A stretch of DNA of 35,734 bases. Source: a virus. The stretch lies in IMG/VR virus record IMGVR_UViG_3300043184_000065; one strand, written 5' to 3'. A program made the position numbers and the translations under genes. The notes beneath the pieces were generated by a model, which was not told the origin of the DNA, searched no databases, and saw nothing but the letters and a program-made list of their open reading frames with translations. This document shows, piece after piece, positions 306-33,824 of the stretch; position 1 is the stretch's first letter; each line of letters starts with the position of its first letter.

Positions 306-1151
306 GCCGCCCGGAGTCGCCGCGCCGATCCACACGCGATCGGGCTCGAACAGCTGCCACGGGTTGGCGCTGAGCGCCCGCAATTCGTGCAGCAGCAACT
401 CGCGGTCCCAAACGGCGGCGAAGGCGATGTCCATGCTCGCCGTGTCAGGCCCCCCCGCATCGGGCCACAACGGATGGTAGCCGATGGCACCAACGCTACC
501 CGACCACAACGAGTTGAAGGTGCCGGCTCGCGGATTGCTGCCATCCGTCACATCTGCCATGGCCGAATTCGGAGTGCCGACGTAAATGCGTGCAGCCGAA
601 AACACGGTCTCAGATGCAGGGTACGTGGCCGCGACCCAATACCATTGATTAGTCGCCACTGTTGTGGTCGAATTAACCCCGTTTGCGGTGAAGTCAACAT
701 CTGCACCGAACCAAAAGCGCGGTAGCCCGCCGGTCACAAAGTCCGTGGTCGAAACGCACAGGGTCGGGGATACCGCCGGACCAACGTCGCGCTGCGTGTA
801 AAGCGTTGCGCCGCGGTCGGTTGCAGCAGAGGAAAATATCGTACCGTTAAAGTCGTTCAGCCGAACCAAGAACAACAGGCTGATCGCGCGGTTCGACGCT
901 GATGCCACGACAGGCGCCCCGGTCGTGACAACGGGTGCGCGCGCCACCTCTCGCGCGCCAATGGCTCGACCGTAGGGCGTCGCCACAGGCACGTAATTGC
1001 CGCCGCCGGGTCTGAACTGCTGGCTGGCAGCGTTTAGCGCGCCGGCGCCATCCGCCAGCATGAGCGCACGCAGGCCACCCGCCGAGGGGTGCGTCGGGTC
1101 CAGCGGCGTGCCCGCAGGCGGCTGCGACGTGCGTGGCAGAGCCAGCCACAT
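1..1151 (-). CDS. LamG / concanavalin-A-like lectin-fold virion protein, 5' portion of a junction-spanning gene (continues 35619..35460; 1311 nt, 436 aa in total)
   Basis: Manual minus-strand translation from ATG 1151 (absent from the ORF track because it runs off the window edge): MWLALPRTSQPPAGTPLDPTHPSAGGLRALMLADGAG... LamG-type motifs NQWYWVAATY..ARIYVGT and AAVWDRELLLHELRALSANPWQLF are present. 1151-104 is divisible by 3, so the frame joins ORF 35460..35723. Confidence 0.75.
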   Translation of the reverse strand, partial: MWLALPRTSQPPAGTPLDPTHPSAGGLRALMLADGAGALNAASQQFRPGGGNYVPVATPYGRAIGAREVARAPVVTTGAPVVASASNRAISLLFLVRLNDFNGTIFSSAATDRGATLYTQRDVGPAVSPTLCVSTTDFVTGGLPRFWFGADVDFTANGVNSTTTVATNQWYWVAATYPASETVFSAARIYVGTPNSAMADVTDGSNPRAGTFNSLWSGSVGAIGYHPLWPDAGGPDTASMDIAFAAVWDRELLLHELRALSANPWQLFEPDRVWIGAATPGGTTLSVARATALATGRLVEVLRARVVDVPRGTVLATGRLVDVVRARVLDVARATLTASGRAVDVVRARVLDVARATVTATGRAIDLGVGAVVAVSLATVLAT

Positions 1152-3698: not shown

Positions 3699-5188
3699 GC
3701 GCTGTCTCCGAAGGGGTGGTAGTCGTCGATCACGCGCACACCACCGCCGACCGGACGGCCGCCCGCCAGCGCGGTGCGGCCTTCGCCGCAGGCCAGGTGG
3801 AGATACTGGTCGGCGTCGGCGATGTGGCTGTAGTGGTTCTTCTGCGGCTTGTTCTCGTAGCGGCCGCCGCCGCACGCCAGCTGCACCCGCTGGTAGACGT
3901 AGCCGCTGTTGTAGGCCCGGCGCAGCACCCGGCAGCGCGGGCTCACCAGCGATCCCGGCTGGCCGTCGATCAGCCGCTTGAGCGGGCCGCGGACCGCCTC
4001 CAGCCGCACGGTCAGGTCGTTGGTGCGCGCCGGGCGGAACGGCACGCGCGTCTGGCGGGCGACGATCTGCATCCAGGTCGGCTCATGGCCCGAGCCATCG
4101 CTGCCGGTGTCGGCCGACGGGTCGCACACGCCCTGCACCTCCAGCCCGTCGAACCGCTCGCGCAGCACCTGCAGGATCATGTCGGCAAACCGGGTCGGCC
4201 CGGCCGCCGTCACCTCGCCGTCCGCACCCGGCAGGATCGCGATTTCGTCCAGCCGGATGATCCGCCCCGTCGCCAGCCGCTGGCCGAACACCGCCGCCGG
4301 GGTGAGTCCCGCGTCCGCGCCGATCAGCAGCGGCAGGCCGCGCACCGGCTGCAGATCGTGCGCCGCCACATGGATCGCGTCGCTGAACTCCGGATAGACC
4401 GGCGTGCCGTTGCGCACCGCCCCGAACTGATTGTCGATCATGCGCCGGATGTAGTCTTGGCTGGCGCCGATCATCTGGACGTCGTAGTAACTCCGGCCCT
4501 CCGGCAGGTTGTGCAGGTTTTCCGCACCCGGCTCGCGCCCACCCGGCTGGCGCCAGAACTTGATCGCGTCGTAACTCAGCGACGGCGGCAGCTCGAAGGC
4601 TCGGTCCACCAGCAACTCATAGGTCCAGCTGTCGGTATCGGGGGCGTTGAAGTCCATGATGATCGCGGCATAGGCACAGCCGCCCAGGCGCGTGGACGGG
4701 TAGCGCCCGATGCGGCCCAGCGCGTACTTCAGCACGTCGCGGTGCAGGCGGTCGGCTTCGTTCAGCCAGAAAATCGTCACCTCCAGCCCGCGCAGCACGT
4801 CCTCGACGCGCTTGTCGCCGATGGCGATGAAGATCATTTCCAGATGCACCAGCGCATCGTCGGACAGCCTGAAGGTCAGCTCGTGGGTGCGCGGGCTGTC
4901 GCCGACCCATTTGCCGACCTCCTTGGGGAACCACGTATGCCAGCTGGCGATCGTGGTTGAGTCGAGTGCCGGATAGGTGTCGCGCACCACGGCAATCCGG
5001 CAGTAGCGGTGACCGTCTGGCGCCGGCGCCTGGCGCAGCGCCGCCATCACGCACTTCTGGATGCACGCAGTCGTTTTCCCGGAGCCCACGGGCCCCATGA
5101 TGGCGTCGATGATCGCGGTCGAGCGCACGAACGCGCCGGCCACCGGGCCGGCCGGATCGAGCGCCAGCAGGTTGGACGCGCCGCTCAC
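3695..5188 (-). CDS. terL: Terminase large subunit
   Basis: 497 aa. Walker A GPVGSGKT, Walker-B-like IFWLNEAD, and C-terminal nuclease-type motifs LLIGADAG, VCDPSA and HIADADQY. Confidence 0.9.
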   Translation of the reverse strand: MSGASNLLALDPAGPVAGAFVRSTAIIDAIMGPVGSGKTTACIQKCVMAALRQAPAPDGHRYCRIAVVRDTYPALDSTTIASWHTWFPKEVGKWVGDSPRTHELTFRLSDDALVHLEMIFIAIGDKRVEDVLRGLEVTIFWLNEADRLHRDVLKYALGRIGRYPSTRLGGCAYAAIIMDFNAPDTDSWTYELLVDRAFELPPSLSYDAIKFWRQPGGREPGAENLHNLPEGRSYYDVQMIGASQDYIRRMIDNQFGAVRNGTPVYPEFSDAIHVAAHDLQPVRGLPLLIGADAGLTPAAVFGQRLATGRIIRLDEIAILPGADGEVTAAGPTRFADMILQVLRERFDGLEVQGVCDPSADTGSDGSGHEPTWMQIVARQTRVPFRPARTNDLTVRLEAVRGPLKRLIDGQPGSLVSPRCRVLRRAYNSGYVYQRVQLACGGGRYENKPQKNHYSHIADADQYLHLACGEGRTALAGGRPVGGGVRVIDDYHPFGDSA

Positions 5189-7062
5189 CCGACATCCTCC
5201 GGATCAGCGCCCAGCACCGCCGAGACGGGCACCAGCACGCACCGCATCTGCATGCCGCCGACGCGGACGTTTTTGGTGGCCAGCGCCCCGTCAACCCGGC
5301 GCAGCGACTGGGACCACACGCCGGCGGCACCGGAGCGGGCCGCCCAGTGGCTGGCCTCGAACACCCGCGCGGTGCCCTGGTGGGCGTGCGCCACCGCCAG
5401 ATAGCGCACGCCGTCGTGCTCGACCACGCGCAGGCCGATCTTGCCCAGGGCTTCGGCGGCGGCCTCGCGGGCCGGCTGGTCCGGCATCGGCATCGCAATC
5501 TGGTCGCGCAGCATCGCCTGGTGCTGGTCGATCCACGACGCCACCGTGCGCGGCACGCCGCCGCCCGCCAGCATCACCAGGCTGGAGCCCAGATAGGCGC
5601 AGCAACGCTGGCTGTCCGACACATCCTCGGACTGCTCGGCCAAAGTTTCCGCGCGCAGCAGGGCGGCCCATTCGTTCACGGTTTCCGCCACCGGCAAACC
5701 CTCGAACAGCAGCAGGTCGGCAGCGGCCAGCAGCGTGCCGAACTGGTCGGCCGAGCGGCCGCCATGACCCACCGCGATCAGCGCCTCGCGCATGGTCTGC
5801 AGCGTCTGTTCCCAGCGGTGCCACTGGTCGAGCAGCCGGCGGTAGAGTCGACTGCCCAGCTCGCGCAGGGCGCGCGGCTGCAGCTTGGGCTGCACCGACC
5901 CGCGCGGCAGCTTCTGCAGGTCGAGGATCGCCAGGCGCGACTTGTCCTGCCCCAGGAGCGGCGGCATCAGGATCGACGAAAACAGGAAGCACGACCGGGC
6001 GGTGAACTCGTGGCCGGTGTGGTCCTGGCCGCCCCGGAAAATCTGGCCACCCGAGGCCGCCTGGCGCGCCAGCTTGATCAGCGACTGGGTGCGGCGGTTG
6101 TCCTCCTCCGCTTCCAGCTCGTCGATCGCCACCGGATAGGTCTGCTGGCCCAGCAGCTGGCGGATCGCCGCTTCGGTGGTGTCGGTGGTCGACAGCAGGC
6201 CGCCGCCGAACAGGCCCCGGATCAGCTCCTGCAGCGTCGACTTGCCGGTCGCCTTGTCGCCCGTGATCCACACCAGCGGCCGCCACTTCAGGGCGCCGCC
6301 CAGCCGCGCCGCGCCGATCCAGCCCAGCAGCAGCAGCGCATCAATGTCGGGGCGCGTCCAACTCCAGCTGTTCAGCAGCGCCAGCACCTCCTCGCCCGGC
6401 GCGGTGGTCTGGGTCACATCCGCCGGGCGCGGACCCGGCGGCGCGGTCGGATAGACCAGATCGTCGTAGACACCCGGACGACGCCAGTCGTTGTCCCACC
6501 AGAGCCAGTCGCCGCAGTGCAGCACCAGCTGGCCGTCCTCATCCAGCCAGGTGCCGCGCCCGCGCACCTTCTCGCGCGCGTTCCACACGCCCTTGCGCGC
6601 CGCCGCCGCCATCAGCTGCTCGCCCGCTTCTTCGGGCTTCCAGCCGGTGTGCACCAGCTCGCCGCCCTTGCCCTGCTTCATGCGCGGCCAGGTGGTGTGG
6701 CAATAGTGGGTGTGCGGCGCGAACAGCGCCAGCAGGTCCTTGTTGCCGTGGTCGCGCGCCTTCAGGGCGCGCAGCTCGTTGAGGCTCGACAGGTAGTAGA
6801 AAACCCCGTTTTCCGTGCCCAGCGGCTGCACCGGGCAGTCCGCCGACAACGCACCCGGTTCCGGATCACGGCCCTGCCTGCGTCGGCTGCGGCCCGGCCC
6901 GGCCACCGGCGGCGGCCCCGCATCCTCGCGGCCGCCGCCCGGCGCTGGTTGGGATGTCGCGCGGGCGCCATCGTCCGGCGCTGGCCCCGCCAGCGGCGCC
7001 TGGTCGAACGCCGCCTGCATGTGCGACAGGCGATCGTCAGCCACCAGCGCCTCCCCGCACAT
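5185..7062 (-). CDS. Replicative helicase, DUF927 / SF3 (phage-plasmid primase-associated) type
   Basis: 625 aa. P-loop ITGDKATGKST, Walker B AIDELE, and N-terminal VQPLGTENGVFYYL. The stop overlaps the terL ATG (ATGA). Start is uncertain (7062 or 7020). Confidence 0.75.
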   Translation of the reverse strand: MCGEALVADDRLSHMQAAFDQAPLAGPAPDDGARATSQPAPGGGREDAGPPPVAGPGRSRRRQGRDPEPGALSADCPVQPLGTENGVFYYLSSLNELRALKARDHGNKDLLALFAPHTHYCHTTWPRMKQGKGGELVHTGWKPEEAGEQLMAAAARKGVWNAREKVRGRGTWLDEDGQLVLHCGDWLWWDNDWRRPGVYDDLVYPTAPPGPRPADVTQTTAPGEEVLALLNSWSWTRPDIDALLLLGWIGAARLGGALKWRPLVWITGDKATGKSTLQELIRGLFGGGLLSTTDTTEAAIRQLLGQQTYPVAIDELEAEEDNRRTQSLIKLARQAASGGQIFRGGQDHTGHEFTARSCFLFSSILMPPLLGQDKSRLAILDLQKLPRGSVQPKLQPRALRELGSRLYRRLLDQWHRWEQTLQTMREALIAVGHGGRSADQFGTLLAAADLLLFEGLPVAETVNEWAALLRAETLAEQSEDVSDSQRCCAYLGSSLVMLAGGGVPRTVASWIDQHQAMLRDQIAMPMPDQPAREAAAEALGKIGLRVVEHDGVRYLAVAHAHQGTARVFEASHWAARSGAAGVWSQSLRRVDGALATKNVRVGGMQMRCVLVPVSAVLGADPEDVG

Positions 7063-8131
7063 AGTCGTTCCAGTCCTTGCAGCCCGCCGGCGGCAGGGCG
7101 CGGCCGACGGTGAACCCGCGCGCGCGCAGCCGGGCCATCACGCTGTCGGTCAGGGCCGCCGCCGGCGAGCCGGGCGCGTCGTGCTGCCCGGCAATCAGCA
7201 CCGGGCCGGTGCCCGGGCGCAGCGGTAGCAGCGCGATGTTGGCCAGGCTCACCGCCGCGATGATCCGCTCGGCCGGCAGAGCCAGCGCCACCGACAAGGC
7301 ATCCTCGATACCTTCCGCCACGATCACCCGCCGGCCCGACGGCAGCTGGTGCAGGGGGCTGCGATCCGCACCCTTCCAGATCGGGATATAGCCACCCGAG
7401 AACTCGCCCAGCACCTTCTTGGGCGCCGTGAGCGCCGCCTTGGTCGCGGTGGCAGGGTCGAGGAACGTGCGGTGCGTGGCGATCTGGGCGCCGGCACCGT
7501 CCAGCACGGCCGCCAGCATCGCCGGGCCCATGGCGGCGGTTTCCGAGATCAGCACACTGTCGGCACAGCGCAGCGCCCCCGGCACCCGCCCCAGCCGCGC
7601 CAGCGAAATGCCGCGCTGATCCAGATACCGCGCCACCAGGTCGCCCGCCTGCACAGGCCGGGCACTCAGCCACAGGCCCCGCGCAGCGCGCTGCTTGCGC
7701 GCCCGGTCGACCTGCTGCTGGCGCTCCGCTTCGACCGCGATCCGCTGCGCCGCCTTGCGCGCCTTGGCCAGCGTCGCCGGGTCCATGCTTTCCAGCCCCA
7801 GCCAGCCCTTGGCCCAGCGCACCGCCGGTGCCCGGTCACCGCGGAACATCACCTCGGCGATCAGGTCCAATGGATCACCGCCCTGCCCGGACGCAAAGTC
7901 CTTCCACCAGCCAGCCTTGGCGCCACGCAAATGCACGCCCAGGCTCTGGCCCGGCTCGCCGGCCAGGTCGCCGCACCGCCACTCCGCGCCGTGCTGCCGC
8001 CCGTGGGGCAGCAGCTCGGCCGCCAGCGCCGGCATCCGGGCGCGCAGCATCGCCACCAACTCGCGGATTTCGATCAGCCCGCTGCCCCGATCGGCGCTCT
8101 GGAACGCGGCTGAGGCCTGCCCGCCGGTCAT
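7037..8131 (-). CDS. DNA primase, Toprim-domain (phage/plasmid type)
   Basis: ATG 8131, 364 aa. Motifs: EWRCGDLAGEPGQSLGVHLRGAKAGWWKDFASGQGGDPLDLIA, then Toprim VIVAEGIEDALS and DWND. The upstream 128 codons of track ORF 7037..8515 are low-complexity and rejected. Confidence 0.75.
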   Translation of the reverse strand: MTGGQASAAFQSADRGSGLIEIRELVAMLRARMPALAAELLPHGRQHGAEWRCGDLAGEPGQSLGVHLRGAKAGWWKDFASGQGGDPLDLIAEVMFRGDRAPAVRWAKGWLGLESMDPATLAKARKAAQRIAVEAERQQQVDRARKQRAARGLWLSARPVQAGDLVARYLDQRGISLARLGRVPGALRCADSVLISETAAMGPAMLAAVLDGAGAQIATHRTFLDPATATKAALTAPKKVLGEFSGGYIPIWKGADRSPLHQLPSGRRVIVAEGIEDALSVALALPAERIIAAVSLANIALLPLRPGTGPVLIAGQHDAPGSPAAALTDSVMARLRARGFTVGRALPPAGCKDWNDYVRGGAGG

Positions 8132-8477
8132 GCCACACCCCCAGCCCAAGCCCGCACCCGGCGACCTTCCCTGCCCCTCAACGCCGCTCGAAGCGTTCGC
8201 GGCCGAGGCCCAGAATTTTTGCACGGAGCGTGTCGACCCCGGACAGAGGAGGGAGCGGACGTTTGGGGGGGGGGCCCCCGGTCGACCGACCGCGCGCGCG
8301 CAGCCCCCCCCAGGGGGGGCGCGACAGCCCGCACCAGCCCGAGCGCCACCGCCCTGGCCGACGCCCGCCGGCGCGACCGCGAGGGATTTATGATCACTCG
8401 CGCACATGGAGCAACCCGTTGCAATCGCTGCACTTTCGCCCCCACGTCCAACGCGTGACGTCCAACTGTCCCGCCGG
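8132..8477. promoter_or_regulatory. 346-bp non-coding gap with homopolymer and palindromic elements upstream of the primase gene
   Basis: G10 8265-8274, C5 8275-8279, palindrome CGGTCGACCG 8279-8288, (CG)5 8291-8300, C8-A-G7 8304-8319, and ACGTCCAAC x2 at 8444-8466. Only Arg-rich shadow ORFs are present. Confidence 0.5.
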
Positions 8478-9074
8478 TCATTGGCTAACCCCTTGATTTT
8501 GCTCGATCTGCCCATGGTCGATCGGCTCGCCCTCGATCACCGCGCCGGCCCCGTCCAGCCCGCCGTCCACCAGCTGGAGCCGCTTCGCCAGGTCCGCCAG
8601 CGTCTCGCCCTCGCCCTGCGCCGGCGCGTTCAGCCCGGGCACCAGCAGCGTGATCGCGCCCGCGCTCTGCACCTGCAGGCGGACCGGCTGCTTGCCATGC
8701 ACGTAGGGCGCTACCTCCGAGGCCGCGCGCACCTGTAGCGCCAGCGCATCGGCCTTCGAGCAGCCGACCTCCGCCGCCAGTTCCTCGGGCGTGCGCTGAT
8801 ACACCGACGCCAGGAACAGCAGCGGGTCGCGCTGGGTGCTCAGGAAATACGCCACGAAGTCCTGTGTGCGCCGGTTGCGGCTGCCCGGCGGGCGGCCCCG
8901 GCCGCGCAGCGCCACCGCCTCGGCGGCGCGCGCCTGGCGCACCCGGTCGTGCGCCGGCAGATCGGGCTGCTCCACCGCCAGCAGGTCCAACTGGGCCGCC
9001 GGCGCCAGCGTCTGGCGCTCCGGCACGCCGACGGCTTCGGCGATCGCCCGCTCGATGCCCACCGACCGGGTCAT
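8478..9074 (-). CDS. Putative DNA-binding protein, possible small terminase subunit or regulator
   Basis: 198 aa from ATG 9074 (GTG 9083 also possible). The basic motif RGRGRPPGSRNRRT is followed by AASEVAPYVHGKQ, a pattern I associate with TerS-like or HTH phage proteins. It is not adjacent to terL. Confidence 0.35.
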   Translation of the reverse strand: MTRSVGIERAIAEAVGVPERQTLAPAAQLDLLAVEQPDLPAHDRVRQARAAEAVALRGRGRPPGSRNRRTQDFVAYFLSTQRDPLLFLASVYQRTPEELAAEVGCSKADALALQVRAASEVAPYVHGKQPVRLQVQSAGAITLLVPGLNAPAQGEGETLADLAKRLQLVDGGLDGAGAVIEGEPIDHGQIEQNQGVSQ

Positions 9075-9227
9075 GCCGCCCACCGCCGCGCCGAGGCCCG
9101 CGCCGACCGCGAGGGCCGGGCCGACCGCGAAAATTCTCCCGCGCCGCCCCTCTTTCCATCCATTTGTTTAATGATCGCAAGGGCTTGACCAGGCAGCCAG
9201 CCGCCACGACAGGGCCGGCGCAGCCCT

Positions 9228-9496
9228 TCTGTTACACTGCTACACCTGCTGTTACACAAGTGTAGCAGCGATTTCCCCCTAGTTTCCCAATAGGTTAGTC
9301 CATCTGTTACAGTGTTACAGTGGAAAACGAACCCCCTACATGTGCGCGGGTGCGTGCGCGAGCGTGCGCGCACATGCGCGATTGTCACGCGCGCGCGAGG
9401 CCGGTGTAACACTGTAACAGACGCGCCAAACCCTTGATCTTGCTGGACTATCGGGCTGTTACACCAGTGTAGCAGCCGGTGTAGCAGTGTAACAGC
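9228..9496. repeat. Cluster of about 12 copies of CTG(T/C)TACA(C/G), including two 22-bp palindromes and a central 10-bp inverted repeat
   Basis: Copies at 9229, 9237, 9249, 9260(inv), 9304, 9313, 9404(inv), 9413(inv), 9456, 9467(inv), 9479(inv) and 9488(inv). Palindromes lie at 9248-9269 and 9455-9476. CATGTGCGCG at 9339-9348 pairs with CGCGCACATG at 9367-9376. Confidence 0.85.
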
Positions 9497-9651
9497 CACC
9501 CCCCCGCGTCCGCACGCCCGAAACCTGTTCGAAGTCAGCCACTTAGGGAACGGGGCTGCGACGACGCATGAAGCCGCACGGCCGCCGGGTCCGGGCGGCA
9601 CGGCCGTCCAGGCCGCACGACGGTGACCGCTCGAACAGGCCCGCGCACCGC

Positions 9652-11756: not shown

Positions 11757-12127
11757 CCACAACAGCCATGACCACCTCACCCCGCACCGCCGCCCCCGGC
11801 ACCGCGCGCAGCAGCGCCGATGATGCCGTCTGCGATCTGGTTGGCGCCATCGCCAGCGTGCGTGTGGCCGTCGATCGCGCCGGCACCGCCAGTGCCGATG
11901 CCGCCTGGGCCCGCGCGCGCGCCACGGCGGCCGCCGTGCTGGCGCACCCGCAGGCCGGGCGGCTCTATCGTGGCTGGACCCAGCTGGCCCAGCTGGTGGT
12001 CGACACGCGGCCCGGCGATGCGCTGGGCTTTGCCCATTTGTTCGCGCAATACCGGCTGGTCCTTGCCTCTAGGCTGCTGTGGCAGCCCGGCTGGATGGAC
12101 CGCGCCGACACCGGAGAGGCGGCATGA
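11753..12127 (+). CDS. Hypothetical protein (124 aa)
   Basis: ATG 11753 with GGAGA 7 nt upstream. Sequence: MTTTAMTTSPRTAAPG...FAHLFAQYRLVLASRLLWQPGW. Confidence 0.6.
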   Translation: MTTTAMTTSPRTAAPGTARSSADDAVCDLVGAIASVRVAVDRAGTASADAAWARARATAAAVLAHPQAGRLYRGWTQLAQLVVDTRPGDALGFAHLFAQYRLVLASRLLWQPGWMDRADTGEAA

Positions 12128-13044
12128 TGGTGGCTGAGCAGACGCAGGCGGCCGCGCGGCGCCGGCTGCGTCGGTGGTGGGAGCGCTGGCCGGAGCGGGC
12201 CGAGCAGGCCCGCGCTTTGATGGCGGCGGGGCAGCCGGACGTCGCGATTGCAGAGGCGGTCGGGCTTTCCAAGACGACGGTGTCCCGGTGGCGGCGGGGC
12301 ATCGGCCTGCGTAGGAAGGTCCCCCGGCCGCCGTGGTGGGAGAAAGACCCGTCGCGGGCTGCCGCCGTGCGCGCGGATTACGACGCTGGCGCCATCACTG
12401 GCGTGCTGGCGCAGCGGCACGGCGTGAGCCTGAAGATGGTGCGGCACTGGCTGAAAGCCCACGGTCTCACGTTCCATACACAGTGCGACTGGTCGGTGCG
12501 CTTACCGGAGCTGGCGGCGCTGGCGCGCGCGGCCTATGACAGGCTTGCCACCGACGCCGCCATCGCCGAGCTGTGCGGCCTGAACGTCGAGCAGGTGCGG
12601 CAGTGGCGCAAGCGCCACGAGCTGCCGGCGCACAAGCGCCCGCTGGGCTGGCGTGCGGCGGCGGCGCAGCCCCCCAAGCTGCGGCCGGGCACGCGCGGCG
12701 GCGAACTGACCGCCTCCACCGAGCGGCCGGGCACGCGCGGCGGCGAACTGACCGCCTCCACCGAGCGGCCGGGCACGCGCGGCGGCGGACTGACCGCCTC
12801 CACCGAGCGGCCGACGGAGCGCCAGACCGGTGTGCTGGCCGTGGCCATCCGGGCGCTGCGCACGGCGGGTTACAGCGTGGCGGACGCGCGCATCGCCCAT
12901 TGGCAGGGGGCCATTCCGTCGGGCGCCACGACCCAGTGGCAGGTGGGCCGGCGCGTGCTGAGTGCGCCCGAGCTGCTGCGCCACGCCCTGCGCCACGGCC
13001 GCCTGCTGCCCGACGAGCGCGCCAGCGTGGAGGCGGCGCTGTGA
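12124..13044 (+). CDS. Triple helix-turn-helix DNA-binding protein with a 14-aa x3 tandem repeat linker (306 aa)
   Basis: ATG 12124 overlaps the upstream stop (ATGA). Three HTH-like segments: DVAIAEAVGLSKTTVSRWRR, ITGVLAQRHGVSLKMVRHWLKAHG and DAAIAELCGLNVEQVRQWRKRH. The repeat unit is RPGTRGGELTASTE. Confidence 0.6.
   Translation: MMVAEQTQAAARRRLRRWWERWPERAEQARALMAAGQPDVAIAEAVGLSKTTVSRWRRGIGLRRKVPRPPWWEKDPSRAAAVRADYDAGAITGVLAQRHGVSLKMVRHWLKAHGLTFHTQCDWSVRLPELAALARAAYDRLATDAAIAELCGLNVEQVRQWRKRHELPAHKRPLGWRAAAAQPPKLRPGTRGGELTASTERPGTRGGELTASTERPGTRGGGLTASTERPTERQTGVLAVAIRALRTAGYSVADARIAHWQGAIPSGATTQWQVGRRVLSAPELLRHALRHGRLLPDERASVEAAL
12681..12814 (+). repeat. 42-bp tandem repeat, about 3.2 copies, in frame inside the triple-HTH gene
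   Basis: gcggccgggcacgcgcggcggcgaactgaccgcctccaccga at 12681, 12723 and 12765 (third copy has gaa->gga), plus a partial fourth copy. Confidence 0.9.
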
Positions 13045-14486: not shown

Positions 14487-14762
14487 ATGCCCACCTCGCC
14501 CGTGCTGCTGGCCCTGCTGGCCGACGCTGTCGCCCTGCTCGGCGGCCCGCCGCAGGCCGCCCAGGCGCTGGGCGTCAACGAACGCTCGGTGCGCTACTGG
14601 CTCAGCGGCGCCAAGACGCCCCAGCCAGGGGTTTGGGCCGATCTGGAACGCGCGCTCGAAGATCATGCGCTGCGCTGCCAGCAGATCAAGCGGCTGATCC
14701 GCACCGCCCGCACACACACCTCTCGAACACAGCCGGAAAGCCCCCGCCATGGCCCGCGTTGA
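14487..14762 (+). CDS. Small HTH protein immediately upstream of int (possible excisionase/RDF or regulator, 91 aa)
   Basis: MPTSPVLLALLADAVALLGGPPQAAQALGVNERSVRYWLSGAKTP. It overlaps the int start by 14 nt. Confidence 0.5.
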   Translation: MPTSPVLLALLADAVALLGGPPQAAQALGVNERSVRYWLSGAKTPQPGVWADLERALEDHALRCQQIKRLIRTARTHTSRTQPESPRHGPR

Positions 14763-16077
14763 CATCCCCTATCTGGTCACCAAGCGCAACGGCAACGGCG
14801 CGCTGCGCCACTACTGGCAGCCCTCGGCGGCGCTGCGCCGGGCCGGCTACAAGCCCCAGCGGCTGGCGGACGATCCGCTGCAGGCCGCCATCGCCGCGCA
14901 GGCCATCAACGATGCCCTCGCCAGGGCGCGCGTTGACGCAACGACAACGGCGGCGGCCGCAACGTTTGGGGCGCCGGCCGCAACGCCCCGGCGCATGGCG
15001 ACGCTCGATGCGCTGATTGCCGCCTACCAGGCATCCAGCAGCTGGAGCCACACCCGCAACGGCGCGCCCCGGCCGGCCAGCACCCAGCGCTGGTATGCCA
15101 CCAAGCTGCGGGTGCTGTCGCGCTGGGCCGGCGATACGCCGCTGGATGCCATTGGCCGGGCCGATGTCGCCACGCTGTTCGAGGCGCTGGCCCGGCCGCG
15201 AACCGCCGGTGGCCCGCGCGCGCTGGCCGAAGCCGGCAGCGTGCTGCGGGTCGGGCGCCTGCTGTTCGAATGGGCCTGTGCGCGCGACTGGATCAGCGCC
15301 AATCCGTTCGCCAAGCCGGGCACGCCCCAGGCGGCCGCGCGCCAGGCGCTGTGGAGCCCGGAGGCGATCGACGCCGTGCTGGCGGCCGCCTACCGGCTGG
15401 ATCGCCCGTCGGTGGCGCTGGCGGTGCAGCTGGCACTATGGCTGCTGCAGCGCGAGGGCGACCTGCTCAGCTTCACCTGGAGCCAGATGACCGAGACGGT
15501 GGTGCGCGCCCGCGACGGCCACGAACAGGTGCAGTGGCGCATCCGCTTGCGCCAGAGCAAGACCGGCGCCTGGGTCGACACCCGCCTGCCGGCCGAGCTG
15601 GAAGCCGAGCTGCTGGCACTGCGGCCGCGCACGGCGGCCGAGCGGCTGGCCCGCCCGCACATCCTGGTCAACGAGGCATCCGGCCAGCGCTACACCGGCG
15701 ATGCCTTCCGCCGCCTGTTCCTGGACTGCAGGCAGGCCGCCGTCGCCGGCCACGCCGGCGGCCCGGTGCGGCCCGGTGGCCCCAGCTGGCCGGCACACCC
15801 GCCGTGCCCAGCGGTGGCCGATCTGTGGTTTGCTGACCTGCGGCGCACCGGCATCGTCCGGCTCGCCGAAGCCGGTGTCGACCTGCCCGGCATCACCGCG
15901 CTCAGCGGTCACCAGATCGAACGCACACGGCAGATTCTGGAGGTCTACCTGCCCCGCACCAGCGCCATGGCCGACGCGGCGATCACCCAAATGGAGGCCC
16001 ACCGCCGCGCCCAGACCGCCGCCCAGACGGTCCTCGAAACCAGGGCCCGTTTGACGTCAAACGACACCAGCGTCTGA
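14749..16077 (+). CDS. int: Tyrosine recombinase / phage integrase
   Basis: 442 aa. Catalytic signature in order: LLQREGDL (Arg I), LRQSKTGAWV (Lys), FADLRRTG (Arg II), LSGHQ (His), EVYLPRT (Tyr). The tRNA-fragment attP lies 37 nt downstream. Confidence 0.9.
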   Translation: MARVDIPYLVTKRNGNGALRHYWQPSAALRRAGYKPQRLADDPLQAAIAAQAINDALARARVDATTTAAAATFGAPAATPRRMATLDALIAAYQASSSWSHTRNGAPRPASTQRWYATKLRVLSRWAGDTPLDAIGRADVATLFEALARPRTAGGPRALAEAGSVLRVGRLLFEWACARDWISANPFAKPGTPQAAARQALWSPEAIDAVLAAAYRLDRPSVALAVQLALWLLQREGDLLSFTWSQMTETVVRARDGHEQVQWRIRLRQSKTGAWVDTRLPAELEAELLALRPRTAAERLARPHILVNEASGQRYTGDAFRRLFLDCRQAAVAGHAGGPVRPGGPSWPAHPPCPAVADLWFADLRRTGIVRLAEAGVDLPGITALSGHQIERTRQILEVYLPRTSAMADAAITQMEAHRRAQTAAQTVLETRARLTSNDTSV

Positions 16078-16113
16078 CGCCACCACCCACAATCCGCTAA
16101 GTCATTGAAATTA

Positions 16114-16158
16114 TGGTGGACCCTGATGGACTCGAACCATCGACCTAGTGATTAAGAG
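16114..16158 (-). tRNA. Partial tRNA-Lys(CUU): anticodon loop to CCA end only; probable attP core
   Basis: Minus strand reads CTCTTAA-TCACT-AGGTC-GATGG-TTCGAGT-CCATC-AGGGTCC-A-CCA (loop, stem 3', variable loop, T arm, acceptor 3', CCA). The sequence 5' of the loop (AAGAA) cannot pair with TCACT, and there is no 5' acceptor GGACCCT. Confidence 0.65.
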
Positions 16159-16198
16159 TTCTTTTAGCTCTAGCAATATCAAGGACTTACACGCGCCA

Positions 16199-16846: not shown

Positions 16847-17148
16847 GGCTGTGGCGCCCGGGCGGCCAGCAGCTGATCCTTGTCGCGCGCGCCCGCCGAC
16901 GAGCCGAACCACCACTGCACGGCCGCACCCGCCAGCGTCGACCAGCTGCCGACGATCGAGCCCACCAGCAGGGCGGCACTTTCGGGCAGGATGTTGCGCG
17001 CCAGCAGCCACAGCGAGGCGCCGGACAGGGCAGCCGCAATCAGCAGCAGCGCCACGGTCAGGCCGCCGTGCCAGCCCTTGGGCGCCGCGCGGGGCGGCGG
17101 TGGCAGGGCATCGAACGGCTTGAGGTCAAGCGGGCGATCGTCGGTCAC
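16843..17148 (-). CDS. Two-TM membrane protein, putative holin (101 aa)
   Basis: GTG 17148 overlaps the endolysin stop (GTGA). TM1 is GGLTVALLLIAAALSGASLWLLA and TM2 is AALLVGSIVGSWSTLAGAAVQWWF. Confidence 0.55.
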   Translation of the reverse strand: MTDDRPLDLKPFDALPPPPRAAPKGWHGGLTVALLLIAAALSGASLWLLARNILPESAALLVGSIVGSWSTLAGAAVQWWFGSSAGARDKDQLLAARAPQP

Positions 17149-17582
17149 TGCGGGTCCTTTCCGGTTTCGATCATGGCAATGATGCGCTGCGCGCGGGCGG
17201 GCGTCTGGCGCGCCCACAGCCAGCCGCGCAGGCGGCGCGCCGCCGTCGCCCAGTCCTTGGCGATCAGCGCCTGCACGGTCAGGCCGCCGCGCTGGAACTC
17301 GCGCGGGCCCAGCTGGAACACCATGTTGGCAATCGCGCGGGCGCGCACCGGATCATCCTTCACTGCCTGCCACACCGGCAGCGGCTCCAGCGCCGCCAGC
17401 TTGCGCGCAATGTCATTGTCCAGCAGCAGCGCGATTTCGTCGTCGCTCAGGCCGCCGCCCTTGCGCCGGTCGATCAGCCGGCCGACGCCGATCGTCCAGT
17501 AGCCCAGGCTGTCCTGGTAGGCATGGGGCACCACGCCCTCATCGCGGATCAGGTCGCGGCGCAGCTGGTCGCGGTCGAGCAT
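17145..17582 (-). CDS. Endolysin, T4 E-type lysozyme (GH24 muramidase)
   Basis: LIRDEGVVPHAYQDSLGYWTIGVGRL...ANMVFQLG...WARQTPARAQRIIAMIETG is collinear with T4 lysozyme (catalytic Glu, Asp, Thr). AAGGAGA SD. Confidence 0.9.
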   Translation of the reverse strand: MLDRDQLRRDLIRDEGVVPHAYQDSLGYWTIGVGRLIDRRKGGGLSDDEIALLLDNDIARKLAALEPLPVWQAVKDDPVRARAIANMVFQLGPREFQRGGLTVQALIAKDWATAARRLRGWLWARQTPARAQRIIAMIETGKDPQ

Positions 17583-17583
17583 G

Positions 17584-17832
17584 TCAGTCTCCTTTGAGCA
17601 GGCCGAACAGGTCGGTCACCAGGCCGATCAGGAACGCCATTACCGCCGACACCAGGATCAGCACCCGGAAGCCGCCGCGCGCCGCCGCCATCAGCTGCGT
17701 GAGCTCGGCGATCTGGGCGCGCATCTGCGCGGCATCCCGGCGCAGGTCGACAATCGCCTGGTCGACGGCTTCCAGCTTGTTCTCGATCACCTTGATGGCG
17801 GCCAGCAGCTCGGCGTGATTGGGCGGGGTCAT
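17584..17832 (-). CDS. Coiled-coil protein with a C-terminal TM, putative holin/antiholin (82 aa)
   Basis: GAGGAGGA SD 7 nt before ATG 17832. N-terminal heptad-like AELLAAIKVIENKLEAVDQAIVDLRRDAAQMRAQIAEL, then TM FRVLILVSAVMAFLIGLVTDLFGLL. Confidence 0.5.
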   Translation of the reverse strand: MTPPNHAELLAAIKVIENKLEAVDQAIVDLRRDAAQMRAQIAELTQLMAAARGGFRVLILVSAVMAFLIGLVTDLFGLLKGD

Positions 17833-17845
17833 GCGATCGTCCTCC

Positions 17846-19960
17846 TCAGGTCACCCGCACCTGGGCGCCGACGTAATAGGGCAGCCCGCTGCCGCCATCG
17901 TTGGCAACGATCCGCACCGTCTGCGCGCTGCCGGTGCCGTTGGTCCAGCTCAGCGCCGGCACATAGCCCGTCCCGAAGCCGGCAATGCGCTGCACTGCGC
18001 CTGCGTCGATGGCGAACAGGTTGGCAGCGGAGCGCGCGCCGGTGGTCGCGTTGACGCTGTGGCGTTCGATGTCTTCGAGCCACAGCGTGGCGCCGTTGGG
18101 CACGTCCACGCTGGTCAGCACCACGTCCCCTGCACCGGCGCCGCGATAGACCAGCGGGCGGCCGCGCGCGCGCGCCAGCGCCACACGCCACGGCATCAGT
18201 CGCCCGTCGACATCGAACGTGATGCCGACCAGCTGGGAGTCTGCCACCATGCCGTCCGAGCTGGTGCCCGTGTTCGACAGCGCGAAGCTAGTGGCTAGCA
18301 GCAGGCTGTCATGGCCGCCCGGCTTGATGTATTCCACCGCCTTGGTCGACAGGAACGCGTTGGCGCTGATCTCCATGGCAAAGCGCATGTTCTGGGCGAA
18401 GCCGGTCGACGTCTTGCGCAGCAGGATGTCGCGGTCGTTGAACAGGAACTTGTTGCCGATGATCAGCTTTGGCGCGCTGCTGTTCGGGTTGGCCTCGGCG
18501 ATTTCGATGTACAGGCCGGCCGCGTTGGCGGTGGCGCTGGGGTAATTCGCCTGCTTGAGGTTTTCGATTTCGCAGCCCATCACCACCAGAATGGTTTCCT
18601 CATGGACATGCAGGCCCATGGCGGACTCCGACAGGGTCGATCCGATCACCCGCAGCGACCCGCCCGGATAATCCCAGAACACGCAGCCCTGCCGCTGGAA
18701 CAGCATGGTCGAGTCCAGAATGTTGGTCTGCCCGCCGTTGTCGGCCGCGCCGGCCTTGGTGGCGTGAAGCCCCCAGTTGCAGTCCATGAACACGCAGCTG
18801 CGGATCGTGTTGATGTAGGCGATGCCCTGCGCGTCGACGGCGCGGTCGAAGAACCGCACACAGACACGGTCCAGGTCGATGTGGCGGAAGTGGACATTGC
18901 CCGGCGGGGTGGTGCCGGCCGCCAGACTCATGTCGAACCGGATCGCCGCGCCTGTCAACTCCGCCGCCGGCGCCAGCTGATGGCCGCTGCCCAGCAGCTT
19001 CAGGTCGGTGAAGGTCACGCCGAACGCGCCGATCTGGCCGGCGTAGTAGGCCATGGCTGCACCGCCCGGAATCACGCTGAACAGCACGGTCGACGGGGTC
19101 GTCATGCGCACGGTGAAGTCCGCGTCATCCACCTGTGGCGCCGGCGGCGCCGAGATCAGCGCAGGATTGGCCCGGCTGGTGCCCCGGATCGTCACCGGCT
19201 TGCGCACCTGCAGGGGGGCACTGACCAGATGGCCGCGCCCCGCCTGCACGCAGCCGCCGGCCGGGCAGGCATCGAGCGCGCGCTGCCACGCCGCCGTGTC
19301 GTCGGCATCGATCGCCAGCCGATAGTCGACCACATAGGTGGCGCCGCGCGTCAGGGCGTCGGCCAGCGTGCGCGCCGCCGCCGTGGGCGCACCGGGCGCC
19401 AGATAGGCAATCAGCGCAGCGCCCAGGGCGGCCGTCGCCAGGTCCGAGCGCAGTGCGCTGTCAGCGCCCGCTGTGCCGGTCAGCGCCACCGGCGCACCCG
19501 CGCCATCAAAGCCCAGAAACCGCCCGGCCCGCGCACTCGCCGGCGGCAGGGTCGCGCCCAGCGCCGGGTCCGTTTCCGGCAGCAGCAGCGCGCGGCTCAC
19601 ATCATCGTCGACTTCCTGGGCGATCTGGGTCAGCCGATCGAGCGCATCTTCGTGGGTCTGCGCCGGGAACGGATCGTTGGGCACATAGTCGACGGATTGA
19701 GTCCGTGCGGTCTGCCGCCGGATCGACACCGTCGACCCCGCCGCCGGCGCCGTCCCGAACACCACCGTGCCGCCGGGCGTGGCCACCGCGCGCGACACCG
19801 TGTAGTCGACGTTCAGCGTCTGCAGCGTCTCGGCGCCCGCCGCGCTGCGCACCACCACCCGCAGGGCCGCGTCGTCAGCGAACCCGAACGGCACGGCGAA
19901 ACTCCGCGCACTGCCGTCGCCGGCATAGGCGATGCGCCGGGCGAGCGTTGTCACTGTCAT
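17846..19960 (-). CDS. Tailspike / tail fibre: T7 gp17-like N-terminal adaptor domain plus pectate-lyase-like right-handed beta-helix
   Basis: 704 aa. N-terminus IAYAGDGSARSFAVPFGFADDAALRVVV...VDYTV...VSIRRQTARTQSVDY matches the gp17 N-domain pattern. IDADDTAAWQRALDACPAGGCVQAGRGHLVSAPLQVRKPVTIRG is a typical beta-helix depolymerase start. Confidence 0.8.
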   Translation of the reverse strand: MTVTTLARRIAYAGDGSARSFAVPFGFADDAALRVVVRSAAGAETLQTLNVDYTVSRAVATPGGTVVFGTAPAAGSTVSIRRQTARTQSVDYVPNDPFPAQTHEDALDRLTQIAQEVDDDVSRALLLPETDPALGATLPPASARAGRFLGFDGAGAPVALTGTAGADSALRSDLATAALGAALIAYLAPGAPTAAARTLADALTRGATYVVDYRLAIDADDTAAWQRALDACPAGGCVQAGRGHLVSAPLQVRKPVTIRGTSRANPALISAPPAPQVDDADFTVRMTTPSTVLFSVIPGGAAMAYYAGQIGAFGVTFTDLKLLGSGHQLAPAAELTGAAIRFDMSLAAGTTPPGNVHFRHIDLDRVCVRFFDRAVDAQGIAYINTIRSCVFMDCNWGLHATKAGAADNGGQTNILDSTMLFQRQGCVFWDYPGGSLRVIGSTLSESAMGLHVHEETILVVMGCEIENLKQANYPSATANAAGLYIEIAEANPNSSAPKLIIGNKFLFNDRDILLRKTSTGFAQNMRFAMEISANAFLSTKAVEYIKPGGHDSLLLATSFALSNTGTSSDGMVADSQLVGITFDVDGRLMPWRVALARARGRPLVYRGAGAGDVVLTSVDVPNGATLWLEDIERHSVNATTGARSAANLFAIDAGAVQRIAGFGTGYVPALSWTNGTGSAQTVRIVANDGGSGLPYYVGAQVRVT

Positions 19961-26980: not shown

Positions 26981-26981
26981 G

Positions 26982-30784: not shown

Positions 30785-30792
30785 GACACCCC

Positions 30793-30990: not shown

Positions 30991-31047
30991 GATGCCCTCC
31001 GGTGCTGGACGGGGGGCCAGCCGCGCCGGCCCCCCGTCACAGGTCAC

Positions 31048-31467: not shown

Positions 31468-31486
31468 GATGTGAGGCTCCTTCTCG

Positions 31487-33823: not shown

Positions 33824-33824
33824 C

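What the first reader, a model, noticed from the sequence alone, without database searches (positions are those of the whole stretch)
9084..9651. 570-bp non-coding hub with about 12 copies of CTG(T/C)TACA(C/G) arranged symmetrically around a GC-rich cruciform
This is the largest non-coding stretch, between the early Cro/glycine-zipper genes and the rest of the lytic train. Twelve copies of the 9-mer or its complement are listed in the feature table. Two near-perfect 22-bp palindromes GCTGTTACAC-NN-GTGTAGCAGC lie at 9248-9269 and 9455-9476. The direct pair at 9304-9320 is mirrored by 9404-9420. The centre carries CATGTGCGCG/CGCGCACATG (9339-9348 and 9367-9376) within alternating purine-pyrimidine sequence. 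This resembles an iteron-type origin, a pac or partition-like site, or a multi-operator control region. As RNA, the palindromes would be 9-10-bp hairpins that could act in cis on elongation. No cognate protein is obvious. Candidates are the triple-HTH protein (12124-13044), the 8478-9074 protein and the ParB-like domain protein.
Basis: seen in the sequence. Interest (0 to 1): 0.7.

Follow-up and report, generated by a model that had tools for sequence, protein, structure and literature searches.

The report
Iteron-type phage replication origin
The 570-bp gap is real non-coding DNA holding twelve 9-bp protein-binding repeats around a GC-rich core, and it is most likely the origin where this prophage's own helicase starts DNA replication, a design shared by over 100 related phages that each use a different repeat sequence.

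Summary
Ten exact CTGYTACAS copies plus two variants all lie in 9229-9495 (0.26 expected by chance), arranged as 4+2 | 2+4 around an alternating purine/pyrimidine core. The ORF that spans the gap is spurious.

The same array occurs in more than 100 related alphaproteobacterial phage and prophage loci. It has about 12 sites, an inner pair 8-9 bp apart on each side pointing at the core, and AT-rich spacers with IHF-like boxes. Each lineage has its own repeat in one shared register, (C)TG-NNN-C-R-S.

The usual gene order is primase > helicase > array > small AT-hook protein (probable small terminase) > TerL > portal. This matches the SaPI pri-rep-ori design.

Three results tie the array to the helicase:
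- Repeat sequence co-varies with the helicase C-terminal domain, not with the neighbouring protein once other proteins are controlled for.
- Two phages with an unrelated packaging module keep the array directly after the helicase.
- One phage with a different replicase has a different array.

Best reading: a bidirectional origin loaded by a self-loading SF3-like helicase (about 0.6). Main rival: a cos/pac packaging site (about 0.2), because the array always lies just upstream of the terminase-like gene. I rate it a new variant of a known kind.

The parts
9229..9268 (.). Outer iteron group proximal to the 198-aa gene. It holds four 9-mers: 9229-9237 (+) CTGTTACAC, 9237-9245 (+) CTGCTACAC, 9249-9257 (+) CTGTTACAC and 9260-9268 (-) CTGCTACAC. 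It includes the 22-bp near-palindrome at 9248-9269.
   Evidence: D1, I1
9271..9303 (.). AT-rich spacer carrying an IHF-like box, CAATAGGTTAG, at 9288-9298. Together with the inner pair (9271-9330) it is the second least stable 40-60-nt duplex stretch in the whole window, so it is the candidate unwinding element.
9304..9320 (+). Inner iteron pair, CTGTTACAG and GTGTTACAG, spaced 8 bp start to start and pointing at the centre.
   Evidence: The 8-9-bp inner-pair spacing is conserved in 60 of 65 relatives.
9321..9403 (.). GC-rich core of alternating purine/pyrimidine, with 10-bp inverted arms CATGTGCGCG (9339-9348) and CGCGCACATG (9367-9376) separated by an 18-nt spacer.
   Evidence: I17. The core type is conserved across 75 loci whatever the iteron: median 65 nt, R/Y alternation 0.71, CGCGCA present in 56 of 75.
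9404..9420 (-). Mirror inner iteron pair: GTGTTACAC at 9404-9412 and CTGTTACAG at 9412-9420, both on the minus strand and pointing at the centre.
   Evidence: The two sites flanking the centre are inverted in 67 of 75 relatives.
9421..9455 (.). Second spacer, carrying an IHF-like box, CAAGGGTTTGG, on the minus strand at 9426-9436 (GATCAAGGGTTTG against the consensus WATCAANNNNTTR).
   Evidence: (I2). The equivalent box is seen in L010, L017, L102 and L105.
9456..9495 (.). Outer iteron group distal to the 198-aa gene: 9456-9464 (+) CTGTTACAC, 9467-9475 (-) CTGCTACAC, 9479-9487 (-) CTGCTACAC and 9487-9495 (-) CTGTTACAC. It includes the near-palindrome at 9455-9476.
9156..9175 (-). Conserved box ATCATTAAACAAATGGATGG, read on the minus strand. 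It lies 40-90 nt beyond the array on the downstream-gene side in relatives. Its function is unknown; it may be an RBS or promoter element.
5185..7062 (-). Putative replicative, self-loading SF3-like helicase of 625 aa. The Walker A region is weakly like the P4-family primase C-terminus and the NrS-1 helicase, and relatives are weakly DUF927- or DUF5906-like. Its C-terminal domain (residues ~530-625, nt 5188-5475) is the proposed iteron reader.
   Evidence: co-variation
7037..8131 (-). DnaG-type primase (DUF7146 + Toprim_3), 364 aa starting at the ATG at 8131. The longer 492-aa ORF running to 8515 is over-extended.
8478..9074 (-). 198-aa protein of the 'P family' (phrog_15261). Its motifs are QLDLL, an AT-hook-like RGRGRPPGSRN, and PYVHGKQP. 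By position it is the probable small terminase. It is always the first gene after the array, which makes it a possible accessory or architectural factor.

Best explanation
The array at 9229-9495 is the phage's origin of replication. It belongs to the class used by self-loading, primase-associated SF3-like helicases; SaPI Rep/ori and P4 alpha/ori are the known examples.

Proposed mechanism. Steps 2-5 are inferred.
1. Twelve 9-bp iterons in the register (C)TG-NNN-C-R-S are arranged as outer 4 + inner 2 on each side of a 65-85-nt core. This is shown.
2. The C-terminal domain of the helicase encoded at 5185-7062 binds them.
3. The two inner pairs point at the core and position two helicase hexamers head to head.
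4. The AT-rich spacers, the least stable duplex in this 72% G+C region, carry IHF-like boxes. They bend or melt, and the alternating purine/pyrimidine core takes up the torsional change.
5. The adjacent DnaG-type primase (7037-8131) primes both strands, and replication proceeds in both directions.

The variable NNN triplet sets replicon specificity between related phages.
For: **Conserved architecture with lineage-specific repeats**
- Arrays of modal 12 sites spanning 220-290 bp occur in more than 100 loci. They have an inner pair spaced 8-9 bp, inverted sites flanking the core in 67 of 75 loci, and an alternating R/Y core.
- Examples of the repeats in the shared register: TTA-CAG in the window, TTG-CAG in L017, TTC-CGC in L036, GGA-CAG in L040, CAA-CGG in L030.

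**Gene order**
- The commonest order is primase > helicase > array. The gap from helicase stop to array is 55-230 nt in about 45 loci.
- This is the SaPI layout: pri, then rep, then ori immediately downstream, with 6-12 iterons, half on each side of a centre, and at least 2 on each side pointing in opposite directions (PMC9371898, read).

**Co-variation (61 non-redundant loci)**
- Iteron distance against helicase C-terminal-domain distance: rho = 0.25, p = 0.0005. Against the helicase core: 0.04, not significant.
- Partial correlation of the C-terminal domain given the P protein, TerL and helicase core: 0.21, p = 0.0005.
- Partial correlation of the P protein given the others: 0.04, p = 0.19.
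- The signal persists in the 19 genomes where the helicase lies more than 1 kb from the array (rho = 0.31, p = 0.002).
- Example pair L114/L117: TerL 83% identical, P 72%, helicase core 70%, but C-terminal domain 46% and unrelated iterons.

**Module swaps**
- L102 and L105 keep the same kind of array 62-106 nt after the helicase. They have no P-family gene and an unrelated TerS/TerL/portal set (phrog_57/15/21).
- L027 has the P family plus TerL but a Prim-Pol/AAA_25 replicase, and its array is different: 7 direct GCTCCGGTGT repeats.
- Wherever a symmetric array was seen with enough upstream sequence to check, a helicase homologue was present, in some cases 3-5 kb away.

**Other support**
- 9271-9330 is the second least stable 40-60-mer in the window.
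- The helicase C-terminal domain folds confidently as a compact alpha/beta domain (pLDDT 87.8).
Against: - In the window itself the array is not downstream of the helicase. It lies upstream of the 198-aa gene and 2-4 kb upstream of the primase and helicase genes.
- Across all loci that carry both, the array is always the immediate upstream neighbour of the P-family gene. Inserted cassettes always fall between helicase and array, never between array and P.
- Nine helicase-sampled loci that lack a P-family gene also lack a detectable array. For one of them, L079, the array and P gene may lie beyond the locus end.
- Nearest-neighbour tests do not single out the C-terminal domain, and a first test on 16 loci showed no C-terminal-domain signal. 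Mantel tests are sensitive to shared ancestry.
- The core is GC-rich, not AT-rich as in SaPI.
- Foldseek gave no significant match of the C-terminal domain to winged-helix origin binders. The best hit was TcpK at E = 0.28, and SaPIbov1 Rep scored E = 2.8.
- GC skew does not switch at the site.
Confidence: 0.6

Rival explanations
1. The array is the packaging recognition site, of cos or pac type. The 198-aa P-family protein, acting as small terminase, would bind the repeats on both sides. IHF would bend the spacers. TerL would cut in the conserved GC-rich, two-fold-symmetric core, which would play the cosN role. This would resemble lambda cosN/cosB plus IHF, or the P1 pac site with hexamers on both sides of the cleavage region.
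For: - The array is always directly upstream of the P-family gene, by 22-160 nt, or by about 600-800 nt of further non-coding DNA.
- In most relatives the P gene directly precedes TerL and portal.
- The core sequence type is conserved while the flanking repeats vary, as with cosN and cosB among lambdoid phages (own knowledge). IHF-like boxes are present.
- Iteron distance correlates weakly with P and TerL (rho = 0.16).
- Helicase-bearing loci without a P family mostly lack the array.
Against: - The P and TerL correlations vanish once the helicase C-terminal domain is controlled for (0.04 and 0.07).
- L102 and L105 carry the array next to the helicase with a different, canonical TerS/TerL set 1.4-2.4 kb away.
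- L027 has the P family with a different array, and L023 has it with none detected.
- Closely related P proteins go with different iterons, for example L017, L029 and L044.
- Sites on both sides would give no packaging direction.
- None of the contigs I looked at ends inside the array. Ends were read off the locus tables rather than tallied systematically.
- The P protein has no detectable similarity to known TerS folds.
Confidence: 0.2
2. The array is a transcriptional control hub for the late (packaging) operon. Multiple operator or activator sites would be read by a phage regulator, with the palindromes acting on the DNA or as hairpins in the RNA.
For: - The array sits at the boundary between the early (replication) genes and the packaging genes.
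- In L017, L019 and L130 it lies in a divergent intergenic region.
- A conserved box follows it on the downstream-gene side.
Against: - No regulator gene is consistently linked to it. The Cro-like gene can be 9 kb away.
- No sigma-70-like promoter was found and no terminator lies in the array, and there is no Rfam match.
- The hairpin-forming outer palindromes are not conserved.
- Twelve sites in a fixed 4+2 | 2+4 design around a 65-nt core is not a known operator layout.
Confidence: 0.08

Closest known systems
SaPI (staphylococcal pathogenicity island) pri-rep-ori replicon
   Same: - A primase gene, then a helicase-initiator gene, then a non-coding origin.
- 6-12 short iterons, half on each side of a central region, with at least two on each side pointing in opposite directions.
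- The iteron sequence differs between related elements.
- The helicase carries an extra C-terminal domain.

The SaPI description is from PMC9371898.
   Different: - The iterons here are 9-mers in a fixed 4+2 | 2+4 design with AT-rich spacers and IHF-like boxes.
- The centre is GC-rich alternating purine/pyrimidine, not AT-rich.
- The helicase is only marginally similar to DUF927 (5 of 36 relatives, best E = 0.002).
- Its C-terminal domain shows no significant fold match to SaPIbov1 Rep.
- In the window the array is separated from the helicase gene.
- The element is a complete temperate podovirus-like phage, not a satellite.
Phage P4 alpha protein with ori and crr
   Same: A primase plus SF3-helicase system whose C-terminal domain reads short iterons. 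From memory, the type I iteron is TGTTCACC, which resembles TGTTACAC here and TGTTCCG in L019. The window helicase has a weak hit to the P4-family primase C-terminal model TIGR01613.
   Different: - P4 alpha is a single fused protein and needs a second cis site, crr. No second iteron cluster exists in the window.
- The P4 origin is not a 4+2 | 2+4 dyad.
- The iteron resemblance is recalled from memory and was not tested.
Lambda cos (cosQ-cosN-cosB with IHF) and P1 pac
   Same: - The site lies immediately upstream of the small-terminase-like gene.
- Short repeats occur with IHF-like sites.
- The GC-rich symmetric core is conserved among relatives whose flanking repeats differ.
- P1 pac has repeats on both sides of its centre.

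The lambda and P1 descriptions are from my own knowledge.
   Different: - Repeats lie on both sides here, where lambda has them on one side.
- The repeats contain no GATC, unlike P1.
- The repeats co-vary with the helicase domain, not with the TerS-like protein.
- The array persists next to the helicase where the packaging genes are of another type.
Viral SF3-helicase origins (SV40 large T antigen, papillomavirus E1)
   Same: Short recognition elements in inverted orientation around a core palindrome position two hexamers for bidirectional unwinding. This is from my own knowledge.
   Different: These are eukaryotic viruses with unrelated DNA-binding domains. The analogy is in mechanism only.

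Membership tests
SaPI/PICI-type Rep-ori replicon | 6-12 short iterons in two sets flanking a central region | tested here: met
   The window has 12 sites arranged 6 + 6. Twelve is the modal count across 70 relatives.
SaPI/PICI-type Rep-ori replicon | At least two iterons on each side pointing in opposite directions | tested here: met
   Inner pairs at 9304-9320 (+) and 9404-9420 (-). The sites flanking the centre are inverted in 67 of 75 loci.
SaPI/PICI-type Rep-ori replicon | Origin immediately downstream of the rep (helicase) gene, with the primase gene upstream of rep | tested here: not met
   Not met in the window, where the order is array > 198-aa gene > primase > helicase. It is met in about 45 relatives, with a gap of 55-230 nt.
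SaPI/PICI-type Rep-ori replicon | AT-rich central melting region | tested here: not met
   The centre is GC-rich and alternates purine/pyrimidine (median GC 0.60, alternation 0.71). The AT-rich parts are the spacers.
SaPI/PICI-type Rep-ori replicon | Helicase C-terminal winged-helix domain that reads the iterons, with matching rep-ori specificity | tested here: inconclusive
   The C-terminal-domain model is confident (pLDDT 87.8) but has no significant fold match. Co-variation with the C-terminal domain is significant by Mantel and partial Mantel tests but not by the nearest-neighbour test.
SaPI/PICI-type Rep-ori replicon | The fragment supports autonomous replication when pri and rep are supplied | not testable with these tools
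   This needs a plasmid-origin assay.
P4 alpha ori/crr system | A second cis-acting iteron cluster (crr) elsewhere in the genome | tested here: not met
   All exact iteron copies lie in 9229-9495. Elsewhere there are only scattered one-mismatch hits.
Lambda-type cos site | Terminase-binding repeats on one side of the nicking site only, with specificity matched to the small terminase | tested here: not met
   Repeats lie on both sides. The partial correlation of iteron with the P protein is 0.04, p = 0.19.
Lambda-type cos site | Mature genome ends lie in the site | tested here: inconclusive
   No contig I looked at ends inside the array; ends were read off the locus tables, not tallied. Most assemblies are not of virion DNA, so this is weak evidence. 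Read-level data were not available.
P1-type pac site | Dam-methylatable GATC-containing hexamers on both flanks, located inside the small-terminase gene | tested here: not met
   The iterons contain no GATC and lie outside any gene.
Iteron plasmids (RepA/pi/TrfA type) | Tandem direct repeats of 17-22 bp next to an AT-rich DUE and DnaA boxes, with a Rep initiator gene adjacent | tested here: not met
   The repeats are 9-mers in inverted groups. No Rep_3-type initiator was found among the neighbouring genes. No convincing DnaA box was seen on reading the sequence.
DUF927 / SF3 helicases | Match to PF06048 above the Pfam threshold | tested here: not met
   The window protein has no Pfam hit at E <= 0.01. 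Five of 36 relatives hit DUF927 weakly, best E = 0.002. UniRef names two relatives as DUF927.

The most novel reading that the evidence does not exclude
The array is a shared replication and packaging hub. The helicase would load at the iterons. The always-adjacent AT-hook protein (the probable small terminase) would bind the AT-rich spacers or IHF-like boxes of the same structure. The conserved alternating purine/pyrimidine core would then be both the initial unwinding point and the terminase cleavage site, coupling origin firing to packaging initiation.
Probability: 0.12. Interest if true: 0.8.

Novelty: new variant of a known kind. Interest (0 to 1): 0.55.

Why it matters
Replication origins of temperate phages from high-G+C Alphaproteobacteria are essentially unmapped, and I found no description of this array in the literature searched.

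If this reading is right:
- The array marks the origin in well over 100 uncultured phage and prophage genomes.
- It assigns an initiator role, and a specificity domain, to a large family of uncharacterised primase-associated helicases. More than 1,100 relatives score E <= 1e-20.
- The shared register (C)TG-NNN-C-R-S with a variable triplet is a natural specificity series for studying how a helicase-initiator domain re-targets DNA.
- It provides compact, orthogonal ori/helicase pairs for vectors in Sphingomonads and related hosts.
- The GC-rich alternating core shows that this class of origin does not need an AT-rich centre.

Tried and rejected
- **Coding gene in the gap: rejected.** Codon-position GC is flat and there are no homologues.
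- **Known RNA family: none**.
- **Promoters and terminators.** No sigma-70 promoter was found, and the only terminator-like site is at 10286, outside the array.
- **DNA similarity to cultured phages: none**. tblastn with P-family proteins gave only one unannotated record.
- **P-family protein.** No Pfam, NCBIfam or PDB family matched. The only feature is an AT-hook-like match to HMG-I at E = 0.058. The AlphaFold model is mediocre (pLDDT 67), and Foldseek against PDB and BFVD gave nothing significant.
- **Helicase C-terminal domain.** Foldseek gave nothing significant. A word-indexed search with the C-terminal domain alone returned one protein.
- **First co-variation attempt.** With 16-27 hand-registered loci there was no signal for the helicase C-terminal domain and a weak one for P and TerL. 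That changed with 61 loci and partial tests. The nearest-neighbour test stayed uninformative.
- **Residue-level comparison by eye** of the P proteins and the helicase C-terminal domains gave no clear specificity residue.
- **Protelomerase target (telRL-like): considered and dropped.** The core is not a perfect palindrome, and no protelomerase-like gene appeared among the genes scanned.
- **Partition site: dropped.** No ParA/ParB pair is linked to the array.
- **GC skew** shows no switch at the site.
- **Small ORFs between the 198-aa gene and the primase** (the 117-aa ORF and the N-terminal part of the 492-aa ORF): rejected as non-coding.

Full report
**1. Observation**

The window has 71.6% G+C. 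Between the gene ending at 9652 and the gene starting at 9074, both on the minus strand, G+C falls to 48-64%.

The pattern CTGYTACAS matches 10 times, always within 9229-9495, against 0.26 expected. Two further copies with G in place of the first C (GTGTTACAS) lie at 9312-9320 (+) and 9404-9412 (-). The repeat finder recovers:
- the two 22-bp near-palindromes;
- a 41-nt inverted pair of outer groups, 88% complementary;
- the mirrored inner pairs;
- the 10-bp arms CATGTGCGCG/CGCGCACATG separated by 18 nt.

As a single strand the whole 275 nt folds into one hairpin (z = -9.8). The centre alone is no better than shuffles.

The 194-aa ORF that spans the gap is not a gene. Its codon-position GC is flat, and it has no homologue among 1.84 billion representative proteins. 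The 'cruciform' label is not.

**2. Context**

Genes on this side of the window run on the minus strand, in this order:
- Cro-like HTH protein (10292-10017)
- repetitive, glycine- and leucine-rich 122-aa protein, probably a membrane protein (10020-9652)
- the array
- 198-aa protein of unknown family (9074-8478, phrog_15261)
- about 350 nt of further non-coding DNA
- DnaG-type primase (8131-7037; DUF7146 + Toprim_3)
- 625-aa P-loop protein (7062-5185), matching phage 'primase/helicase' PHROGs and weakly the P4-family primase C-terminal model
- TerL (5188-3695)

An integrase (14749-16077) and a podovirus-type structural module (17145-35456) complete a temperate phage. There is no Rfam match, no sigma-70-like promoter and no DNA similarity to cultured phages.

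**3. The array is a conserved module with lineage-specific repeats**

I sampled related loci in four ways:
- homologues of the 198-aa protein (the 'P family');
- a scan of one genome per species;
- a metagenome scan;
- 80 viral contigs sampled through the helicase.

Almost all carry the same structure:
- a span of 220-290 bp;
- modal 12 sites in four groups: outer 3-4, inner 2, core, inner 2-3, outer 3-4;
- an inner pair spaced 8 or 9 bp in 60 of 65 loci;
- inverted sites flanking the core in 67 of 75 loci.

The repeats differ between lineages. When oriented by the inner pair they share one register, (C)(T/G)G-NNN-C-(A/G)-(C/G):

| Locus | Repeat |
|---|---|
| window | CTG TTA CAG |
| L010 | CGG TTA CAC |
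| L017 | CTG TTG CAG |
| L036, L019 | CTG TTC CGC |
| L039 | CTG TCG CGC |
| L040 | TG GGA CAG |
| L028 | CTG AAA CGC |
| L030 | CTG CAA CGG |
| L035 | CTG CGA CGG |
| L008 | GAC TTC CCA |

The core is conserved in kind whatever the repeat: median 65 nt, purine/pyrimidine alternation 0.71, and CGCGCA present in 56 of 75 loci. The spacers are AT-rich and carry boxes that fit the IHF consensus WATCAANNNNTTR.

The mirror symmetry of the outer groups seen in the window is not general. That argues against any role needing a long hairpin or cruciform.

**4. Which protein reads the repeats?**

Two genes are linked to the array.

*(a) The P-family gene.* It is always the next gene downstream, and inserted cassettes always lie on the other side of the array. 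In most relatives this gene directly precedes TerL and portal, so it is probably the small terminase. No fold or family evidence confirms this. Its only recognisable feature is an AT-hook-like RGRGRPxGxxNK motif.

*(b) The helicase.* The commonest order is primase > helicase > array, with only 55-230 nt between helicase stop and array in about 45 loci. Wherever a symmetric array was seen with enough upstream sequence to check, a helicase homologue was present, sometimes 3-5 kb away.

Three results favour the helicase.

*Co-variation.* Over 61 non-redundant loci:

| Protein or region | Correlation with iteron distance | Partial correlation (other proteins controlled) |
|---|---|---|
| Helicase C-terminal domain | rho = 0.25, p = 0.0005 | 0.21, p = 0.0005 |
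| Helicase core | 0.04, not significant | negative |
| P protein | 0.16 | 0.04, p = 0.19 |
| TerL | 0.16 | 0.07, p = 0.08 |

The C-terminal-domain signal also holds in the 19 genomes where the helicase gene is not adjacent to the array (rho = 0.31, p = 0.002).

*Array with the helicase but without the P family.* L102 and L105 have the same kind of array directly after the helicase. They have no P-family gene, and an unrelated TerS/TerL/portal set lies further downstream.

*P family without this helicase.* L027 has the P family and TerL behind a Prim-Pol/AAA_25 replicase, and there the array is of another kind: seven direct GCTCCGGTGT repeats interleaved with IHF-like boxes.

*Caveats.*
- An earlier, smaller test showed no C-terminal-domain signal.
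- Nearest-neighbour tests do not discriminate between the proteins.
- Nine helicase-sampled loci without a P family show no detectable array; one of them, L079, may simply be cut off before the array.
- The confidently modelled C-terminal domain (pLDDT 87.8) has no significant structural match.

**5. Mechanism proposed**

The layout matches the SaPI replicon as described in PMC9371898. That replicon has:
- a primase gene, then a helicase-initiator gene, then an origin immediately downstream;
- 6-12 iterons, half on each side of a centre, with at least two on each side pointing in opposite directions;
- iterons read by the helicase C-terminal domain;
- two self-loaded hexamers.

I therefore read 9229-9495 as a bidirectional origin.

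What is shown: the architecture, its conservation, its linkage to the helicase, and the co-variation.

What is inferred: binding by the C-terminal domain, double-hexamer loading at the inner pairs, melting in the AT-rich spacer 9271-9330 (the second least stable 40-60-mer in the window), bending by IHF, and priming by the neighbouring primase.

The role of the alternating purine/pyrimidine core is unknown. It is the clearest departure from SaPI, whose centre is AT-rich.

**6. Rivals**

A cos/pac site is the serious alternative (about 0.2). In its favour:
- the position immediately upstream of the probable small terminase gene;
- the IHF-like boxes;
- a GC-rich symmetric core that stays constant while the flanking repeats vary, which recalls lambda cosN/cosB and P1 pac (own knowledge).

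Against it:
- the partial correlations;
- the L102/L105 and L027 module swaps;
- closely related P proteins paired with different repeats;
- sites on both sides of the core;
- no contig I looked at ending in the array.

A transcriptional hub (about 0.08) lacks any linked regulator or promoter signal. A combined origin and packaging hub cannot be excluded (about 0.12).

**7. Comparison and novelty**

The element works like a SaPI or P4-type origin but fails several membership features in this window:
- it is not adjacent to the helicase gene;
- it has no AT-rich centre;
- it has no crr-like second site;
- the helicase is below the Pfam threshold for DUF927.

DUF927-like helicases fused or paired with primases are listed as uncharacterised SF3 groups in dsDNA viruses (PMC4889955). 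One from a S. aureus island is a proven helicase (PMC5862659). I found no description of this array in the literature searched.

Verdict: a real, strongly non-random, widely conserved cis element. It is most likely a new variant of the iteron origin used by self-loading helicases. Interest is moderate.

Noticed in passing
window 8132-8477: A second non-coding stretch of about 350 nt lies between the stop of the 198-aa gene and the primase ATG at 8131. No frame has a coding GC3 pattern. It contains C7/G8 hairpin-like runs, a GCGCACATG copy at 8400, and a further CAANGGGTTNG box at 8411-8421; one more such box at 8485-8495 lies just inside the 3' end of the 198-aa gene. The region is partly conserved at the DNA level in L010/L011, where it separates the P-family gene from TerL.
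   Followed up: partly
window 7037-8515: The 492-aa ORF that mechanical ORF listing gives for the primase is over-extended. Its first ~128 residues are G/A/R-rich junk, and the real start is the ATG at 8131 (364 aa), as called on the identical contig L016.
   Followed up: yes
window 8478-9074 (P-family protein) and alignment A1: The family has an AT-hook-like motif, RGRGRPxGxRNK, with a PDB HMG-I match at E = 0.058. Its conserved C-terminal peptide (E/Q)NQG(L/V)S is encoded by DNA that fits the same IHF-like box (AATCAAGGGGTTAG at 8485-8495). It is unclear whether the conservation acts on the protein or on the DNA.
   Followed up: partly
window 9071-9163: A 30-codon upstream ORF (ATG at 9163 on the minus strand, MDGKRGGAGEF...) starts inside the conserved box ATCATTAAACAAATGG. 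It ends in an ATGA overlap with the ATG of the 198-aa gene at 9074. The intervening ~85 nt is a GC-rich insert with two 18-bp direct repeats (9092-9127) that is absent from L010.
   Followed up: no
window 9573-9625; L019 4565-4590; L020 150-180; L001 3425-3450: Short repeats of the type GCCGCACGGCC (two to three copies) flank the array on the far side in the window. In relatives they lie between the array and the P-family gene, in the opposite orientation. This suggests an inversion or a separate small cis element.
   Followed up: no
L017 4483-4800 (also L018, L024): Nine copies of GCCGATCGG fill the extra ~600 nt of non-coding DNA between the array and the P-family gene in this lineage. Their function is unknown.
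   Followed up: no
L027 4320-4740: A phage with the P family and TerL but a Prim-Pol/AAA_25 replicase has a different array: seven direct GCTCCGGTGT repeats alternating with four IHF-like boxes (GCAAGCCNTTGAT). This is probably the origin of that replicase.
   Followed up: partly
L075, L077, L082, L083, L090, L107, L121: These helicase homologues (40-46% identical) sit in other gene contexts, with no P family and no TerL of this type. They show no detectable iteron array within 6 kb. In L082 the helicase is followed by terminator-like hairpins instead.
   Followed up: partly
window 16097-16189: The least stable duplex stretch of the window lies just after the integrase gene. It contains GGACTCGAACC, which looks like the reverse complement of a tRNA T-arm. 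ARAGORN finds no complete tRNA gene, so this is probably the attP core with a tRNA 3' fragment.
   Followed up: partly
window 551-900: This low-G+C stretch (under 58% for about 350 nt) is as long as the one at the array. It appears to lie in or next to minus-strand ORFs downstream of TerL.
   Followed up: no
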